57,072 bases of DNA from positions 292,105 to 349,176 of the forward strand of contig NW_005201286.1 of NCBI RefSeq assembly GCF_000372725.1, written 5' to 3'. The position numbers were made by a program, and so were the translations under genes. Positions 13,536-53,143 of this stretch are shown here, piece after piece. The stretch's first letter is position 1. Every line of letters starts with the position of its first letter. The notes beneath the pieces were generated by a model. That model did not search any database. It worked only from the letters and a program-made list of their open reading frames with translations, and had not been told where the DNA came from. This DNA is from Emiliania huxleyi CCMP1516. Taxonomy: Eukaryota.

Positions 13536-13635
13536 NNNNNNNNNNNNNNNNNNNNNNNNNNNNNNNNNNNNNNNNNNNNNNNNNNNNNNNNNNNNNNNNN
13601 NNNNNNNNNNNNNNNNNNNNNNNNNNNNNNNNNNN
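13536..13635. other. Assembly gap (100 N)
   Basis: Run of N. Confidence 1.
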
Positions 13636-25351: not shown

Positions 25352-26032
25352 TCACGCCGCCGCCTGCTCGGCCAGCACCTCGGCGATGACCTCGCTCGGC
25401 TGCGCGCCAGAGAAGGCCACCGGCTCGCCGTTGCCGCTCGCCGGGTGCACGACGAAGAATGGGACGCCGCGCACGCCCTGCCGCGACCAGCCCGTCGCCT
25501 TGGCGTCCACCTCGCGCTGGAATGCGTCCGAGTGAAGCGCCTTGCCCGCAGCCTCGCCATCGAGGCCGCACGCGGCCGCGCACGCCACGAGCTCTTCGCG
25601 CCGCGAGAGGTCGCGGGCGTCCTCGAAGTAGGCTTTGAAGAGCGTCTCCATTAGTGGGTCGACCGTCTGCGGCTGCGTCGCCTTGCACCACTCGACGAGC
25701 CGGTGCGAGTCGCCCGTGCGGATGATGCGACGCTGCTTGTTGAAGCTGATGCCGACCTTGCCGGCGGCGCAGTCAAGCGGGTTGTCGGGCGCGTCGAAGC
25801 GCGCGACTGCCGCCGGCCCATACTTGGCCGTTAGGTGCTCCATCAGGTCCTCGCCTTCGGCCGGCGTGTTCTGGTTCAGGTAGAAAGGCTGCCAGTCGAC
25901 GTCCAGCGCGACCTTGGCCGACAACGCGGCCGACTCGAGGTGGCGCTTGCCGACCCAGCACCAGGGTCATATGGTGTCCGAGATGAGCGTGACGCGCAGG
26001 GCGGCGGCGCGGGCAGCGGCGGCCATATACAT
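25352..26032 (-). CDS. DsbA/FrnE-like thioredoxin-fold selenoprotein (U-P-W-C; Sec TGA at 25969-25967)
   Basis: Reading upstream in frame with ORF 25352..25924 gives MYMAAAARAAALRVTLISDTI[TGA]PWCWVGKRHLE...WQPFYLN...GVRGVPFFV. The TGA aligns with the first Cys of the FrnE CPWC motif. Confidence 0.88.
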
Positions 26033-26297
26033 GGTGTGTGGCCTCCGCGTGAAACAGCGGCGACAGGCGCTGCCTCTCGGGTTGATGATGGAATTCTTTT
26101 TCAGTGACCTGGTCGTCCGTCGTCATTACCTACTACTACTACTTGACGCTTTTCTTTCTTTCTTCCCGCTCAAAGCTCTTGCGGCGCATGAAATTACTCG
26201 TCCGGAGCGTTACACGCCGATATCCGCGCGGCGCGGGCCTCCTTCTCCCTCGAGCGACCCGTGAGGTGAGTCCAATCTCCAACATCGTCGGCAGCCG

Positions 26298-27362
26298 ATG
26301 CCGACGCCGCAGATTCCCAGCTGTCCAAGCTGGGATTGCTCGGTCCTGGGCCAGGTCTGCACGGAGGGCTCCGGCTACACCTGCTGCGCCGCGGTCCTCC
26401 CTGAGCACGTCGGTGACTGCTCGGGAAGCCTATGTTGGTTTGAAAACAGCGGCCTTCCCTCCGGAGAAGTCTGCTCCGCCTCGCCCGCAGTCCCACCGCC
26501 ATTGTTGCCACAGCTATCGCCGCCGCCACCGCCTGCGCTGCCACCGCCGCCGCCGCCGCTGCTGCCGCCGCTAGCACCAGGGCAGATTCCCAGCTGTCCA
26601 AGCTGGGACTGCTCGGTCTTGGGCCAGGTCTGCACGGAGGGCTCCGGCTACACCTGCTGCGCCGCGGCGAACGTCCCTGAAGACTGCTCGGGAATGTGTT
26701 GGTTTGACAACAGCGGCCTGCCCTCCGGAGAAGTCTGCTCCGCCTCGCCATGCTCAAATCACTGCCAGCTCAATACAACGATCATCATCGTCATGTCGGT
26801 GCTTGGGCTGCTGATCGCTATAGCGGGTATCCTAGTTTGCTTCTACATAGCGAGGAGGCGCAGAAGGCTCAGGCAGGTGGCACCACCCGGCTCGGCAGTG
26901 TCCCAACGCAAGGGCAGCGCCTGCGATGTGTTCGGCAGCTACAAGCAGAATGACGGCACAGACGGATTGCTGTTCAACCTCTTCTACACTCTGGAGATGA
27001 AAGGCATCGACCTCTGGCTCGACAAGAAGCGCGGGAGCGAGCGCAGCGAGGCGGGCATGCGGGCTGGCGTGCGGGCCTGCAAGCTGTTCTGCGCGGTCAT
27101 CTCGCCGAAATACTTTGAGTCAGCCTTCTGCCTTTTGGAGCTACGCACGGCGCTCTCCCACAAGAAGCCGATCGTTGTCTGCTTCAACAGCAGCAAGTTC
27201 ACGGTGCAGCAGGCGATGTCCTGGATCCCGGAGGAGTTCAGGGGGCGGCTGCTGAGCAATGAGGTTGTCGCGCTGCACGAGGACGACGAGTACATGCGGG
27301 TTGGTGTGGAGAAGGTCGCGGCGCAGCTCAGTCTGAGCTCGCCCGAGCAGTCACTCAGTTAA
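26298..27362 (+). CDS. Single-pass receptor-like protein: two Cys-rich repeats, Pro linker, TM and cytoplasmic TIR domain
   Basis: Near-identical repeats at 26309-26485 and 26582-26749 (CPSWDC...C...CC...C...CWF...C). TM IIIVMSVLGLLIAIAGILVCFYIA followed by RRRRR. TIR motifs: DVFGSY, LWLDK, VISPKYFESAFCLLEL, PIVV. Confidence 0.85.
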   Translation: MPTPQIPSCPSWDCSVLGQVCTEGSGYTCCAAVLPEHVGDCSGSLCWFENSGLPSGEVCSASPAVPPPLLPQLSPPPPPALPPPPPPLLPPLAPGQIPSCPSWDCSVLGQVCTEGSGYTCCAAANVPEDCSGMCWFDNSGLPSGEVCSASPCSNHCQLNTTIIIVMSVLGLLIAIAGILVCFYIARRRRRLRQVAPPGSAVSQRKGSACDVFGSYKQNDGTDGLLFNLFYTLEMKGIDLWLDKKRGSERSEAGMRAGVRACKLFCAVISPKYFESAFCLLELRTALSHKKPIVVCFNSSKFTVQQAMSWIPEEFRGRLLSNEVVALHEDDEYMRVGVEKVAAQLSLSSPEQSLS

Positions 27363-28076
27363 CACACACCACACACACACGTATGTGCCCATTGCGTCCT
27401 TATCTCTCCGACTCCGTGGCAGCTGGCCAGTTGGCACTATGACCGTGTGCGCACCCATCCGCCCTCGCCGTCGCCTCGCCGAGCGGCGAGCGCCCGTCGA
27501 GAGCCGGAGAGGTGGGGCAGGTGCGCACCTCTCGTAGAGAAAAGCAGCCACGTGTATGTACGCGTCACCCACGCCGAAGCGAGGAAAGTGAGCCACTGGC
27601 GCCCGCTGTATCCTGTAATAACTTAAGTGGAAACCGAGCTCGGCTCGCCGCCCGAAATATCGAATAGCATGCGACGTAGCTGAGAGAATAACAAAAAACA
27701 GACAACCCCGTCAGCGTGTGACAAAACGATATAGAAAAACAACCCAGTAACGAACTGACAGCCCCCTCCCTCCCCGCGGCCGCGCGCTCTCATGTATGGC
27801 CGTGCACACACACGCCCAGAGAGTGGAGCTGCATCACAGTCTAGCACGCGAAGCGCGCTGCCTCCGCCTGGTCCAGCTCGCGCGGCGCCACATGCGACAC
27901 AGCTGGCAGTGTGCCCTGCCGGCCCCCGCGACATGTACATGTACATGTCTACGCGAGTTCACCACGCCGGCCGCGTCCTATCGGTCTCGGACAGTAAAGC
28001 CGTAGCCCTCAGGGCCAACTCGTCACTAAAGTAAAGAGCAGCCGCAGCCGCGTGCACGGCCACGGGGAAAAGTAAC

Positions 28077-29396
28077 TTAAAGCAGCATGATGTCCTTCAC
28101 GTACTTGTTCTTGAGCTCAGCTTGGTCGAGCTTGAAGACGCGTCCAAAGCCGCGGTTGCCCCTGTTTTCGACCACGTTGGACTCGCCACCATAGTTGCTG
28201 CCACCGAGGACGATGTCAAGGTAGCCGCTTCCGTAGACGTCGCCCAAGGCGACCGCGCCGTCGGTACGAGGCCCGACCACTTGGTAGTAGTCAAAGAAGT
28301 CGTCGCCGTCGTGGGCGTCTGGCTTGTTCCAGAGCACCCAGTTGTCGTACGTGCCGCAAAAGACGACATCCGGGGCGCCGTCGCCGTCCATGTCGCCGAT
28401 CGCGAGGTCGGACCTGGTATCACAGACAGGAAGGTAGGTGGGTTATGGGTGAGCACATCAGTACGGGAAGGTTGTCGGTTGGTTTGCTGGGGTGGGGGGG
28501 GGGGGGGCGCACGAGCCAGAAGACGACCCAACTTTCGGGAGCTCGACAGAGGTGGTGAAATTGCCATCGCCCGGGTTGAGGAAGAGGATGTTGTTCTGCA
28601 GGTAGCACGCGAGCACGAGATCGAGGTGTCCGTCGCCGTTCATGTCGTGGAGGCCAATGGCGTTGACGTACTTCTCTGTGAGCGTGACCACGTCGAAGGT
28701 GCCGTCGCCGTTGTTCTTGAGCAGCTTCGCGCCCCCATACAGCTGGAATCCGAGGACGATGTCGTTCATGCCGTCGCCGGTCACGTCGCCAATAACGGCC
28801 GAGGTGCCATCCAACTCGCCGCCCGGCAGCACCACCGGCGCCTCAAAGACGGTGCCTCCCTTGCCGTACATGATGGACGACTCTTGTTTGGCGCCGTTGC
28901 TGCAGCCGTTGCCGTTGGCAAAGACGAGGTCGTCAAAGCCGTCCCCGTCCACGTCGCCGACGGCGACGCCGCACGTCGACAGCTTATCGGTGCCGTTCAG
29001 ATCAATCGGGTCGTCAAAGCCGCCGTCCCCGTTCCCGAGGAGGAGCTGGTTGGGTGCGTTGTCCCAGCCGGTGTAGCGGTTGCCGAGGAGCAGGTCTGGC
29101 GTCCCGTCGCCGTTGAAGTCGCCGCGCGCGACCGAGGTGGTCTCGAGCGCAGTGCCGGGCATTTCCTCTCCTGCAAAGCCGCCATTGCCGTCGTTGAGAA
29201 GCAGCACGTTGCTGGAGGAGCCGCCGGTGCCGAAGAAGAGATCGACGACCGGTGGTGGCAGCGGCGACGGAGACGGAGACGGAGAAGGGGAGGGCGACGG
29301 AGAGGGTGAACCCTCAGGGACTGAGGAGAACGCCGAAACGGAGGCCACAAGAAAAGGCACGAAGACGGAAAGCGAGCGCAGAGAGCGCATCACCAT
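28077..29396 (-). CDS. Secreted FG-GAP/VCBS-repeat protein; exons 29396-28513 and 28413-28077
   Basis: Signal peptide, (SP)n linker, repeated GDxxGDGxxDL and LLLNxGxGxF motifs. GT-AG intron 28512-28414 joins the two ORFs. Confidence 0.88.
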
Positions 29397-29547
29397 GGGT
29401 GGGAGTGATGGACCAACCAAAAGGCAGCGGGGTACCGAGGCGGTGGCGCCAGCGGGATTTTTCTTTTTTCTAAGAGAGAGAAAAGTCTTATCCTAACGGT
29501 GTGGGGGCGCGGAGGGCTTGTTGGCGAGCCAAAATGGTGTTTTCCGA

Positions 29548-29744: not shown

Positions 29745-29810
<66 letters not shown>
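29745..29810. repeat. (TGC)n microsatellite, ~22 units
   Basis: Directly visible just downstream of the RepHel stop. It produces the spurious polyA/polyC/polyL ORFs. Confidence 0.98.
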
Positions 29811-47451: not shown

Positions 47452-50400
47452 TCAGAGGAGGCGGTACTCGCCCGCGATGACAAAGCACATGCAGTCGACT
47501 TGCATGCCGTCCAGCGCCCGCCGGACCGCCGCGGCGTCCGCCCCGAGCGCCGCCGACGCGGCCGCCAGCTGGGCGAGCGTAGCGCCCCCGCGCTCGCGTA
47601 GCAGCGCCTCCACGTGGGAGCGGAGGGCGGGGTCGGGGTCGGGGAGCCGGCCGGCGGCGTGCGCCGCATCCCGCGGCGGCGGCGGGCGCGGAGACGGAGG
47701 AGCGCCCGACGGCGCGCGCGGAGATGGAGGGTGGCTTGGGTGCCGCAACGTGCGCAGGCGGCCGCGGTAGGCGAGGGAGCAGAGGGCGGCAAGCTCGGCG
47801 AGAAGGCGGCGAGTCTCTGGCAGCTTGCTCTCGCGCTGCAGCTCGTCGGCGTGCGGGCGGAGGTGGGGCGAGCGCTCCGCGGCGTGCGACCTGACGAGAT
47901 GTAGCCGAGATGTAGCCGAGATGTAGCCGAGATGTAGCCAGCCGAGATCTAGCCAGCCGAGATCTAGCCGAGAGACGGCGTGCGGCCTGAGCAGCGCCGC
48001 GCGGCTGCCGAGCACGTTCGCCTCGCAGAAGTGCAGAAGGAGCGCCCCCTGCCGCGCGAAGCGCTCGCTGCCCTTCGGCGGCTCGAAGCGGGTCGCGTGG
48101 CCGAGAGCCGCGTCGCGCACCGAGACGGCCTCGCCGAGCCTGACACGCGGCGGCGGGTCGTGCGCGCCTGAAACAAGGAACGCTTGCGGCTAAGACCGGC
48201 GGGGAGTGGGGGGGGGGGGGGGGGACCAAAGAAAACACGGTCGTAGGTGAGCGCGTCCAGATTCGGCGTGCCGCCCTCGGCCATGAGCTGCTCGTCGCCG
48301 GTCTTGCGGGCATTGCAGCCCACATTTGCGTGCCCGTAGTCATCCCCGAGAATAAGGACAATGTGCGGCTTGCCCTGCCTGTGGCACCGCAGATAACGCC
48401 CAGGCCACCGCCCCCCAAGCGACCAATGNNNNNNNNNNNNNNNNNNNNNNNNNNNNNNNNNNNNNNNNNNNNNNNNNNNNNNNNNNNNNNNNNNNNNNNN
48501 NNNNNNNNNNNNNNNNNNNNNNNNNNNNTACAAGAGGGGGGGGGGGGAGACAAAGAGAAGAGGGGAGGTTGGACGGCGGGTCGTGTGTGCGCGCCGTGCG
48601 TCCAGCGCACGCACAGCACGGCGCCGGTGGCGTCGCCGAGGTAGAGGGAGCGAGAGAGGCGGCCTGAAGAGAGACAGTCCTCGTGCAATTCGGCAGTTCT
48701 GTTTGTGGCGGCCGAGGTAGAGGGAGCGCGAGAGGCGGCCGAAGACGAAAACTACGCCGGGCCGCGCGTGCGGTGTTTCTTTTTGCGGCGGCCGAGCTAG
48801 AGGGACAGAGGCATTCCTGGGCCATCTGGAACGGGCGCCGTCGCGAGCAGCAGCAGCCCCACCGTGTCCACCTCCTCGCCCGCGCCGCGCGCCGCGAGGC
48901 CCGCCAGCGGCGTGAGCCTCCGCACGCGCGCTGCGGCGGCGGCCGAGACCGGCTCCGCCGACTTCATGCGCGCCCAGCTCGCCGATCTCGCTACGAGCTC
49001 GGCCTCGCCGCCCGCGCCGCGCCGCAGCCGTGCGCCGATCACCTTGAAGGCCGCGCCCTCGTCAAACTCGTCCGCCTGCCCCGGCGCGTCGAGCCAGACG
49101 GTCGCCAGACAGACCCTGTCGACCCCTCCGCCGCCTCCGCTCAGGTCGGACACGCGCAAGTTCAGCACCCATGACGCGCGAGGCCGAGCCGCCCACTCCT
49201 CTTCGGCGCCTCCCGCTCCTCCTCCGCCCGCCTCGCCGCCGTCCAAGCTCGCCTGCTCCCTGCGCCAGCTGAGCGCCTCCGCCTGCTCCTGCAGCTTCGA
49301 CTCGTACCCGGCCGCGGTGAGCCAGCCGGCGCCTGAAGATGTACTGGGGAGAGTTGAAGTGGAGCACCGTGAGAGAAGCGGTGCACAGGTAGGGGTACAC
49401 GGACAGCACTGTCATCTGGGGATAGTAGGAGTGGAGGGTGTTCCGGGTAGTCGACTCATGGTAGCGGCGGGATGTGAGGAGCGATGGACACCGGACCTCG
49501 TCCGGCCGCGTCTCCCTCGGGCCGCTCGTACACGCGCAGGCCGTAGCGGCGCTCGACTCGCACGTGGACGCACGGCGCCTGGCCGCCCCCCTCCAGCAGC
49601 GAGCCGAGTGCGACGCGGAAGCCGCACGAGGCCGTCTTGCCCAACTTCGCGTCCCAACTCGCACGCCGCACGCCATTCGCGCTCAGCTTGAGCGCCGGCA
49701 GCGGCAGCGCCGGCGCATCCACGCCGCCGCCCTCCCCCGAGCCAGCTGCGCCGCTTCCTCCCTCGCCTCCGCCGCCTCCTCCTCCTCCTCCGCCTCCGCC
49801 TCCGCCGCCTCCGCCTCCGCCGCCTTCGCCGCCCCCGCCGCCTCGGCCTCCGCCTCCGCCTCCTCCGCCGCCTCCTTCGCCGCCGCCTTCGCCTTCTCCC
49901 TCGGAGATGATCCCGCACCCGCTGAGCCGGAGCTTTGTGCCGACGGCGACCCTCCCCTTCCGGATTTGCCGCAGGAGGTGAGCGTCCGGCGCCTGCGTCG
50001 TGAACGCGCCGACATGAGGGCGGGGAGGCGGTCTTGTGCAGTGTGTTCAGAGCACCGCGTGAGTACAAGGACGAGTGTGCAGTGTGTTCAGAGCACCGCG
50101 TGAGTGTACGAGGAAGGCGAAGACAGCGGACTCCGCTGAATACGGCCGAATACAGCGGAGTCCGTGCCTCCCGCGCGAGTTGCAAGGCATGACTACGTCT
50201 TCCGCTTCTAGCGTCAAGCGCCGCCCACAGGCATCGCCACCCGTCAGTCAGCTCGAGCGCCCCGTCCTCGCACCGCACCGCTGCGACGCAAAGCACCATG
50301 CCGACGCTCGGTGGGTCGGTGCCGTCCTCGATGCGGGAGAGGACCGAGCGGTGGCGCTGCACTCGCTCGCGCCGGTGCCGGTGCGCCAGCTGGCCCACCA

Positions 50401-52332: not shown

Positions 52333-53143
52333 NNNNNNNNNNNNNNNNNNNNNNNNNNNNNNNNNNNNNNNNNNNNNNNNNNNNNNNNNNNNNNNNNNNN
52401 NNNNNNNNNNNNNNNNNNNNNNNNNNNNNNNNNNNNNNNNNNNNNNNNNNNNNNNNNNNNNNNNNNNNNNNNNNNNNNNNNNNNNNNNNNNNNNNNNNNN
52501 NNNNNNNNNNNNNNNNNNNNNNNNNNNNNNNNNNNNNNNNNNNNNNNNNNNNNNNNNNNNNNNNNNNNNNNNNNNNNNNNNNNNNNNNNNNNNNNNNNNN
52601 NNNNNNNNNNNNNNNNNNNNNNNNNNNNNNNNNNNNNNNNNNNNNNNNNNNNNNNNNNNNNNNNNNNNNNNNNNNNNNNNNNNNNNNNNNNNNNNNNNNN
52701 NNNNNNNNNNNNNNNNNNNNNNNNNNNNNNNNNNNNNNNNNNNNNNNNNNNNNNNNNNNNNNNNNNNNNNNNNNNNNNNNNNNNNNNNNNNNNNNNNNNN
52801 NNNNNNNNNNNNNNNNNNNNNNNNNNNNNNNNNNNNNNNNNNNNNNNNNNNNNNNNNNNNNNNNNNNNNNNNNNNNNNNNNNNNNNNNNNNNNNNNNNNN
52901 NNNNNNNNNNNNNNNNNNNNNNNNNNNNNNNNNNNNNNNNNNNNNNNNNNNNNNNNNNNNNNNNNNNNNNNNNNNNNNNNNNNNNNNNNNNNNNNNNNNN
53001 NNNNNNNNNNNNNNNNNNNNNNNNNNNNNNNNNNNNNNNNNNNNNNNNNNNNNNNNNNNNNNNNNNNNNNNNNNNNNNNNNNNNNNNNNNNNNNNNNNNN
53101 NNNNNNNNNNNNNNNNNNNNNNNNNNNNNNNNNNNNNNNNNNN
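52333..53143. other. Assembly gap (811 N)
   Basis: Run of N. Confidence 1.

What the first reader, a model, noticed from the sequence alone, without database searches (positions are those of the whole stretch)
26298..27362. Toll-like topology in an alga: Cys-rich ectodomain repeats, TM and TIR with the catalytic Glu
Two recently duplicated 8-Cys modules that I do not recognise precede a TM helix, a basic stop-transfer and a TIR domain. The TIR retains C-x-x-E-L, the Glu used by NADase TIRs (known). This suggests a ligand-clustered surface receptor making nucleotide signals or triggering death, possibly in antiviral defence (inference). No signal peptide is visible; GTGAGT at 26266 and CAG at 26310-26312 hint at an upstream exon.
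Basis: partly seen in the sequence, partly recalled or inferred. Interest (0 to 1): 0.75.

Follow-up and report, generated by a model that had tools for sequence, protein, structure and literature searches.

The report
Membrane TIR protein with rare Cys-modules
A gene of the coccolithophore Emiliania huxleyi encodes a protein with one or two copies of a rare cysteine-rich module, one membrane helix and a TIR domain that keeps the catalytic glutamate, so it likely acts as a surface sensor that would cleave NAD+; receptor-like TIR genes of this alga were already described in 2025, so this is a new member, not a new kind.

Summary
Window 26298-27362 (+) is Emiliania huxleyi CCMP1516 gene EMIHUDRAFT_226185. 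It has two near-identical 8-Cys modules joined by a proline-rich linker, then a 24-residue hydrophobic helix, RRRRRLR, and a TIR domain. The TIR passes both Pfam cut-offs and the fold matches solved TIRs (Z 14). Glu281 aligns with the catalytic Glu of SARM1 and plant TIRs.

New here:
- The public gene model has only one module, because it skips exactly one 273-nt repeat period.
- Records from other sources carry one module, two without linker, or two with linker. One allele is frameshifted before Glu281.
- The module has no Pfam family and only six relatives among 1.84 billion representative proteins. One relative sits behind a signal-peptide-like N-terminus.
- The TIR belongs to a small subfamily shared with Ank-, CHAT- and Hint-fused proteins and with a giant-virus MAG.
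- The proposed upstream exon would not supply a signal peptide, and one transcript keeps the supposed intron. The 156-residue N-terminal part has no Lys or Arg, which fits N-out insertion without a signal peptide.

Ectodomain-TM-TIR genes with the catalytic Glu were published for this alga in 2025, and this gene is not among them. Enzyme activity, localisation and virus response are untested.

The parts
26298..27362 (+). ORF of EMIHUDRAFT_226185 as it stands in the window, 354 aa with two modules; the public model P0002 is 263 aa with one module
   Evidence: P0002 is 100% identical over 73% of the ORF and lacks 91 aa (273 nt, one repeat period)
26310..26483 (+). 8-Cys module A (aa 5-62), loop VLPEHVGDCSGSL
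26484..26582 (+). Proline-rich linker (aa 63-95, contains SPPPPP); absent in allele P0018 and in one RNA-library contig
   Evidence: (joint 26481>26587 in X12)
26583..26765 (+). 8-Cys module B (aa 96-151), loop ANVPEDCSGM, plus extra CSNHC; this is the module kept in all one-module forms
26355..26627 (+). 273-nt stretch with GT..AG ends that can account for the one-module public model; its placement inside the repeat is ambiguous, and it could be either an intron or an allelic deletion
   Evidence: unresolved
26772..26780 (+). N-x-T sequon (NTT, aa 159-161) just outside the helix
26781..26852 (+). Hydrophobic transmembrane helix, aa 162-185
   Evidence: KD 3.09; AF2 helix 155-193, pLDDT 75-87
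26853..26873 (+). RRRRRLR basic stop-transfer
26913..27332 (+). TIR domain, aa 206-345
27138..27140 (+). GAG codon of Glu281, aligned with the catalytic Glu of SARM1 and plant TIRs
26188..26265 (+).
26266..26312 (+).

Best explanation
EMIHUDRAFT_226185 of Emiliania huxleyi encodes one or two copies of a rare 8-Cys module, one hydrophobic helix, an Arg run and a TIR domain that keeps the catalytic Glu; it is predicted to sit with the modules outside and the TIR in the cytosol, and would likely cleave NAD+ when an unknown ligand brings copies together. Shown: the domain order, the TIR family and fold, the position of Glu281, the lack of an N-terminal signal peptide in every form seen, the variable module number, and near-identical pieces in RNA libraries. 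Inferred: N-out/C-in topology. This rests on the positive-inside rule (seven Arg in the first eight residues after the helix), on 0 Lys/Arg, 12 Asp/Glu and 18 Cys in the 156 residues before it, and on an NTT sequon. Also inferred: insertion by the helix as a reverse signal-anchor (type III). Also inferred: the module is an extracellular binding unit, because one relative follows a signal-peptide-like N-terminus and the conserved Trp/Tyr/Phe positions suggest a glycan- or surface-binding face. Also inferred: TIR self-association on clustering builds the active site, as in SARM1, plant TIRs and bacterial TIRs, giving NAD+ loss or ADPR-type signals used in defence or cell death.
For: - TIR family: TIR_2 at 39 bits (cut-off 28) and TIR at 27.9 bits (cut-off 21.3).
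- Fold: the AF2 TIR region has pLDDT about 75-90. Foldseek gives 91 PDB matches at E<=0.001, with SARM1 7cm7_A on top at 1.5e-6. VIA-align gives SARM1 9mw2_A Z 14.2 (rmsd 2.7, 128 aligned, 24% id), RUN1 Z 14.2 and RPS4 Z 14.0.
- Catalytic Glu: Glu281 aligns with the Glu of 'WCLDEL'/'WCLEEL' in RPP1, ROQ1, AtTIR and SNC1, and with 'KEIVTAL' in SARM1. That these are the catalytic residues is recalled knowledge.
- Conservation: Glu281 is invariant in 5 of 5 aligned sequences and in all 10 rows of the family alignment.
- Module relative P0035 starts MKSTLLALALAGSSA (9-aa KD 2.17), followed by one module at 61% identity.
- RNA libraries: 4 of 4 laid hold contigs on the TIR exon or 3' end with 0, 0, 1 and 5 mismatches. 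X12 also holds pieces of modules A and B. A transcriptome ORF exists (P0009).
- Literature: PMC12489294 (section 20 read) reports ectodomain-TM-TIR genes with the conserved Glu in this alga that respond early to virus.
Against: - No enzyme assay, localisation or ligand exists.
- The fold comparison does not separate enzyme TIRs from scaffold TIRs: MyD88 Z 13.7, Hydra TRR-2 13.7 and IL-1RAcPb 13.5 lie within 1 Z of the top.
- The phmmer E-values to solved TIRs are marginal (0.0017-0.02).
- No signal peptide is seen for a Cys-rich 156-aa N-terminal part, which is long for a signal-anchor-translocated domain.
- One allele (P0009, P0014) shifts frame after MRAG and stops before Glu281, so the gene is dispensable or decaying in some strains.
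- Neither the gene id nor seven of its TIR motifs occur in the searched supplement of the infection time course (0 occurrences).
- The RNA-library contigs could include DNA carry-over (caveat printed).
Confidence: 0.5

Rival explanations
1. The TIR works as a protein-protein scaffold, as classically described for TLR, IL-1R and MyD88, recruiting other TIR or death-fold proteins rather than cleaving NAD+.
For: Scaffold TIRs (MyD88 7beq Z 13.7, IL-1RAcPb 13.5, IL-18Rbeta 13.1) tie with the enzyme TIRs. The topology is that of TLR and IL-1R.
Against: The Glu is invariant across the subfamily. The highest sequence identities among the fold matches are to SARM1 chains (23-26%, against 14-17% for most other rows). 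The best sequence hits are plant TIRs and SARM1. No MyD88-like partner was looked for or found. A 2026 preprint reports that even TLR TIRs make cADPR (10.64898/2026.04.20.719644, passages read).
Confidence: 0.15
2. It is a membrane protein with a non-immune role, such as adhesion, mating or life-cycle recognition, or sensing of the cell covering. It may sit in an internal membrane (ER, Golgi or coccolith vesicle) rather than on the cell surface.
For: The module also occurs between lipase-like domains in another eukaryotic contig (L004). It also occurs in small secreted-type proteins, so it is a general extracellular module and not a dedicated pathogen sensor. The gene is not listed among virus-responsive TIR genes. 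No signal peptide was found.
Against: In every kingdom studied, TIR domains with the catalytic Glu are chiefly linked with immunity or cell death (established knowledge; PMC12489294 passages). Polymorphism of the ectodomain and a loss-of-function allele are typical of immune receptors, which is an inference.
Confidence: 0.2
3. It is a decaying or dispensable gene without a current function. The module-number variation and the frameshift would then reflect relaxed constraint.
For: A frameshifted allele occurs in a transcriptome and in metagenome contigs (P0009, P0014, P0010). One, two or linker-less forms are seen.
Against: Full-length forms from several sources are nearly identical in the TIR (P0011, P0012, P0017-P0020). 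Of the 4 listed differences in RNA-library contig X13, I read 3 as synonymous and 1 as Ser>Ala (my reading). The flanks of the two modules differ by 3 synonymous changes and 1 conservative change. Metagenome contig L003 keeps the whole ORF at 99% identity.
Confidence: 0.1

Closest known systems
Receptor-like TIR genes of Gephyrocapsa (Emiliania) huxleyi, e.g. cogent1101_i1 (PMC12489294, New Phytol 2025; section 20 and Table S9 part 234 read)
   Same: Same species. Both have an extracellular region, a TM helix and an intracellular TIR with the conserved Glu. Both are proposed as receptor-like signal producers. Of the 8 Table S9 rows I read, 7 have at least one predicted TM helix.
   Different: Their ectodomains are periplasmic-binding-protein-like, EGF-like or C-type lectin, and their TIRs are of the 'F[LI]SH.W' type. 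This gene has the undescribed 8-Cys module and a 'CDVFGSYKQNDG' type TIR. It is absent from their tables by id and by seven motifs, and no infection response is known for it.
SARM1 and plant TIR-NLR or TIR-only proteins (RPS4, RUN1, RPP1, ROQ1, AtTIR): NAD+-cleaving TIRs
   Same: Same fold (Z 14.2-12.5). The Glu aligns. The betaA motif D-V-F-x-S-[YF] is shared.
   Different: Those proteins are cytosolic and are activated through ARM/SAM or NB-LRR parts. Here the TIR hangs on a membrane helix below a small Cys-rich ectodomain. Activity is untested.
Animal Toll-like and IL-1 receptors, and Hydra TRR-2 (short ectodomain-TM-TIR; PDB 4w8g)
   Same: Single-pass topology with a C-terminal cytosolic TIR. 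Hydra TRR-2 TIR scores Z 13.7.
   Different: No LRR or Ig domain, no signal peptide, and no evidence of adaptor partners. That Hydra TRR has a short ectodomain is recalled knowledge.
TIR proteins of haptophyte-infecting giant viruses (mentioned in PMC12489294 and 10.64898/2026.10.11.758280, passages read); here the 218-aa ORF of GVMAG contig L001
   Same: 53-54% identity over the TIR, with the same FC[LI]LEL Glu motif.
   Different: The viral forms have no module and no TM. They carry a short N-terminal part of unknown kind. They form their own clade (98/97 support). The direction of transfer is not resolved.

Membership tests
TIR domain superfamily (Pfam TIR_2 PF13676 / TIR PF01582) | Profile match above the curated cut-off | tested here: met
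   39 bits (cut-off 28) and 27.9 bits (cut-off 21.3)
TIR domain superfamily | Flavodoxin-like alpha/beta TIR fold | tested here: met
   AF2 pLDDT about 75-90 over aa 206-345; Foldseek top hits are all TIRs; VIA Z 14.2, rmsd 2.7, 128 aligned
NAD+-cleaving TIRs (SARM1, plant TIR, bacterial TIR type) | Glutamate at the catalytic position of helix alphaC | tested here: met
   Glu281 aligns with the Glu of RPP1, ROQ1, AtTIR, SNC1 and SARM1 and is invariant in the subfamily. The identity of the catalytic residues is recalled knowledge.
NAD+-cleaving TIRs | NAD+ hydrolase or cyclase activity dependent on that Glu | not testable with these tools
   Needs an enzyme assay
NAD+-cleaving TIRs | Self-association of TIR domains to form the active site | not tested
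   The complex prediction could not be run because the queue was full
Toll-like receptors | Leucine-rich-repeat ectodomain | tested here: not met
   No LRR family up to E 1 in Pfam; the ectodomain is 8-Cys modules plus a Pro linker
Toll-like receptors | Signal peptide, single TM and C-terminal cytosolic TIR | tested here: inconclusive
   The TM and C-terminal TIR are present. No signal-peptide-like core occurs in any of 6 N-termini of this gene. The topology itself is predicted only.
Virus-responsive receptor-like TIR genes of G. huxleyi (PMC12489294) | Extracellular region + TM + TIR with conserved Glu | tested here: met
Virus-responsive receptor-like TIR genes of G. huxleyi (PMC12489294) | Differential expression during EhV infection or recovery | tested here: not met
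   0 occurrences of '226185' and of 7 TIR motifs in the xlsx supplement. A different strain and transcript reference were used there, so this is weak.
Any described Cys-rich domain family (Pfam-A) | Profile match of the 8-Cys module | tested here: not met
   No family for the module in the query or in 6 of 6 relatives. The fold could not be modelled (pLDDT 48.5), so a structural relation to known small disulfide domains stays open.

The most novel reading that the evidence does not exclude
The 8-Cys unit is a new glycan- or virion-binding fold on a polymorphic surface NADase receptor. Its TIR subfamily has been captured by giant viruses of haptophytes as a decoy or counter-defence. The locus would then be a direct interface of the coccolithophore-virus arms race, with module number and loss-of-function alleles under balancing selection.
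Probability: 0.12. Interest if true: 0.75.

Novelty: new member of a known kind. Interest (0 to 1): 0.4.

Why it matters
Emiliania huxleyi blooms and their collapse under virus attack matter for ocean carbon and sulphur cycling, and the alga's immune genes are only beginning to be described. This locus adds three things:
- A receptor-like TIR protein with an ectodomain type that has no family name.
- Natural variation in the number of ectodomain modules, plus a broken allele.
- A TIR subfamily that cellular genes share at 53-69% identity with giant-virus-type genes.

Each point can be tested with ordinary assays. The general idea of an ectodomain-TM-TIR with the catalytic Glu in this alga is already in print, so the gain is incremental.

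Tried and rejected
- Own genome: none is held, so paralogues in CCMP1516 could not be surveyed directly.
- Word-based search with the module ('longer' lengths): only the gene itself among 3 candidates.
- ESM Atlas with the ectodomain and with relative P0035: no usable hit.
- AF2 of module B with an 8-row alignment: mean pLDDT 48.5. It is unusable and no fold search was made with it. In the full-length model the ectodomain is below pLDDT 50.
- Module in IMG/VR: none with alignment A4 or with P0036.
- Viral TIR ORF against the phage collection: no match.
- PADLOC: only a weak hit to PDC-S66 (E 0.0045), which is not informative.
- RNA-library contigs gave no cover of 26028-26411. This says nothing about the 5' end.
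- TIR-TIR complex prediction: not available because the queue was full.
- Tree of 9 TIR rows: only the AT-rich, viral-like clade is supported (98/97). The cellular rows are unresolved, so no donor can be named.
- Earlier scan notes: nothing relevant.
- Low-GC stretch near 52-53 kb: it is an N gap, not biology.
- P0037 was set aside as a chance match to a repeat protein (my reading).

Full report
**Identity and observation**

The window is Emiliania huxleyi CCMP1516. The ORF 26298-27359 is 100% identical to the NCBI/UniProt protein 'hypothetical protein EMIHUDRAFT_226185 / TIR domain-containing protein' (P0002, 263 aa) over 73% of its length.

- Module A is 26310-26483 and module B is 26583-26750. 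Each has 8 Cys.
- The DNA copies are 98% identical over the first 86 nt and 96% over the last 53 nt. Of 180 aligned columns, 150 are invariant.
- A profile built from the module and its relatives finds only these two copies in the six-frame translation of the 57-kb window. tblastn with the whole protein finds no second TIR there.
- A 33-residue proline-rich linker (26484-26582, with SPPPPP) lies between the modules.
- After module B come CSNHC, an NTT sequon, a 24-residue hydrophobic helix (aa 162-185, Kyte-Doolittle 3.09) and RRRRRLR.

**The TIR domain**

Pfam TIR_2 and TIR both pass their gathering scores (39 against 28 bits, and 27.9 against 21.3 bits). An AlphaFold2 model made with a 5-row alignment gives pLDDT about 75-90 over aa 206-345 and a helix at 155-193. 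The ectodomain is below 50.

Foldseek against the PDB gives 91 matches at E<=0.001, headed by SARM1 (1.5e-6), RPS4, L7, RPP1, RUN1 and AbTir. VIA-align gives Z 14.2 for SARM1 (rmsd 2.7, 128 aligned, 24% id) and for RUN1, and 14.0 for RPS4. MyD88 (13.7), Hydra TRR-2 (13.7) and IL-1RAcPb (13.5) are tied within 1 Z. The fold alone therefore does not say enzyme or scaffold.

Sequence alignments put Glu281 (GAG 27138-27140) on the Glu of WCLDEL/WCLEEL in RPP1, ROQ1, AtTIR and SNC1, and on KEIVTAL of SARM1. From recalled knowledge, these are the catalytic glutamates. The E-values of these alignments are marginal (0.0012-0.02). The Glu is invariant in all relatives.

**Gene model and the missing signal peptide**

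The public 263-aa model lacks exactly 91 aa, or 273 nt, which is one repeat period. A GT at 26355 and an AG ending at 26627 would allow this as an intron, but the placement within identical sequence is arbitrary.

The two-module-plus-linker form is real DNA:
- Contigs of three of the four DNA runs laid bridge module A, or the linker, into module B: 26365-26649 in X2, and 26456-26649 in X1 and X8.
- An independent metagenome contig (L003) matches 26276-27609 at 99% without a large gap.

Members of the 90% cluster show other forms:
- One-module ORFs starting MPTP[QH] are P0009 (from a transcriptome), P0012 and P0020.
- A two-module form without linker and with another N-terminus, MPHLKTMIARQV, is P0018.
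- One-module forms always keep the B-type loop.
- P0012 carries B-type residues (PDWEC, TGG) upstream of the model's splice point. This suggests a true one-module allele and not a splice product.
- In RNA library X12 a contig joins module A to module B across the linker (26481>26587), so module A is present in that library's assembled contigs.

Module number and linker therefore vary between records. Whether CCMP1516 also splices the repeat is open.

**The upstream-exon hint**

GTGAGT (26266) and CAG (26310-26312) would join MKLLVRSVTRRYPRGAGLLLPRATRE in frame.

In favour: in L003 a 3-nt deletion keeps that frame, and a 35-nt insertion lies inside the supposed intron.

Against:
- The peptide has no hydrophobic core (best 9-aa KD 0.90).
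- Position 26271 reads G in 4 of 4 DNA runs.
- The ORFs P0009, P0012 and P0020 include residues encoded inside the 'intron'. P0009 has His in place of the Gln encoded by the CAG.
- The region 26030-26230 is full of 1-2-nt indels between strains, as expected for non-coding DNA.

None of six N-termini of this gene is signal-peptide-like, whereas the relatives P0035 and P0040 are. The 156 residues before the helix contain 0 Lys/Arg, 12 Asp/Glu, 18 Cys and 30 Pro. The helix is followed by seven Arg in eight residues. By the positive-inside rule, and by the known intolerance of N-tail translocation for positive charge (established knowledge, recalled), this fits an N-out, C-in protein inserted by its own helix (type III). 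This is prediction, not observation.

**The module**

There is no Pfam family in the query or in 6 of 6 relatives. An exhaustive phmmer search of 1.84 billion representatives gives 7 hits at E<=0.001, and I set one aside as spurious. The other six are:
- P0035: a signal-peptide-like start plus one module, 61% identical.
- P0041, P0038 and P0040: one module each.
- P0036 and P0039: three and four shorter 6-Cys versions.

Invariant positions are C5, W8, C10, G14, C17, G22, C25, C35, C39 and W40. A metagenome contig carries the module between a GHSLG lipase-like region and a patatin-like region. The patatin match is below cut-off (23.8 against 27.7 bits). It was not found in IMG/VR.

Between modules A and B the flanks differ by 3 synonymous changes and one Glu/Asp change. 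The loop between the CC pair and Cys6 is 13 against 10 residues and largely different. Both loop types recur in P0018. I read the module as a small extracellular disulfide-rich binding unit. The conserved aromatic residues suggest a glycan or surface ligand, which is inference.

**The TIR subfamily**

Relatives are few:
- P0003 (Ank repeats + TIR, 62% identity over the TIR).
- P0004 (CHAT + TIR, 56%).
- P0005 (TIR + Hint, 53%).
- The AT-rich P0007, P0008 and P0025 (53-59%).

IMG/VR yields a 218-aa ORF at 54% identity (53% over my trimmed columns) on a giant-virus MAG contig. It lies beside Pox_A32-like, topoisomerase II and YqaJ genes, directly after a RelA/SpoT-domain ORF. The AT-rich rows form one clade (98/97). 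The rest is unresolved, so no direction of transfer can be given.

**Expression**

All 4 RNA libraries laid hold contigs on the TIR exon and 3' end:
- 27186-27410: 0 mismatches.
- 27045-27288: 0 mismatches.
- 27221-27467: 1 mismatch.
- 26940-27320: 5 mismatches.

These are assembled contigs, and DNA carry-over cannot be excluded. P0009 comes from a transcriptome collection. P0009 and P0014 shift into the window's other frame after MRAG and stop before Glu281. This is a loss-of-function allele.

**Literature**

- PMC12489294 (passages, section 20, the xlsx searched, and Table S9 part 234 read) reports 15 differentially expressed TIR genes in G. huxleyi during EhV infection. Among them are ectodomain-TM-TIR proteins with the conserved Glu, proposed as receptor-like signal producers.
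- Neither '226185' nor seven motifs of this TIR occur in that file. The TIRs I saw there are of another type.
- A search for four identifiers of this gene found 0 papers.
- A 2026 preprint (10.64898/2026.04.20.719644, passages) reports cADPR production by TLR TIRs, and a Chlamydomonas TIR making 3'cADPR in a clade that includes haptophytes.
- Another preprint (10.64898/2026.10.11.758280, passages) and PMC12489294 note TIR genes in haptophyte viruses.
- Supplements of the preprints were not available to me and might list this gene or its subfamily.

**Verdict**

The specific gene is an unstudied member of a kind already described in this alga. What is new is the undescribed module, its copy-number and linker polymorphism, the broken allele, and the subfamily shared with viruses. 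Neighbouring genes suggest no functional link: a DSBA-like gene at 25355-25966 on the minus strand and an FG-GAP repeat gene at 28080-29492 on the minus strand.

Noticed in passing
L001:5234-6411: On the giant-virus MAG contig, a RelA/SpoT-domain ORF (165 aa; Pfam 42.6 bits, cut-off 27) lies 24 nt upstream of the TIR ORF on the same strand. The pair may form a nucleotide-signalling or anti-defence unit.
   Followed up: partly
L004:3-3954: A metagenome contig of a eukaryote carries the 8-Cys module (48% identity) in a long reading frame between a GHSLG lipase-like region and a patatin-like region. The patatin match is below the Pfam cut-off.
   Followed up: partly
window 52333-53143; also 13536-13635 and 48429-48528: These are runs of N (assembly gaps). 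The first one explains the apparent low-GC stretch in the composition profile.
   Followed up: yes
window 29745-29810: A 66-nt (TGC)n triplet run lies in the region upstream of the FG-GAP gene.
   Followed up: no
window 26030-26230: The shared upstream region between the DSBA-like gene (minus strand) and the TIR gene is highly indel-polymorphic between strains. It includes a 60-letter replacement at 26066-26087 in two DNA runs.
   Followed up: partly
window 26751 (loose end in DNA run X8) and 26482 (loose end in RNA library X12): Contigs continue from the end of a module into other sequence: another Pro-rich stretch in X8, and unrelated coding-like sequence in X12. This hints at further module-bearing alleles or paralogues.
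   Followed up: no
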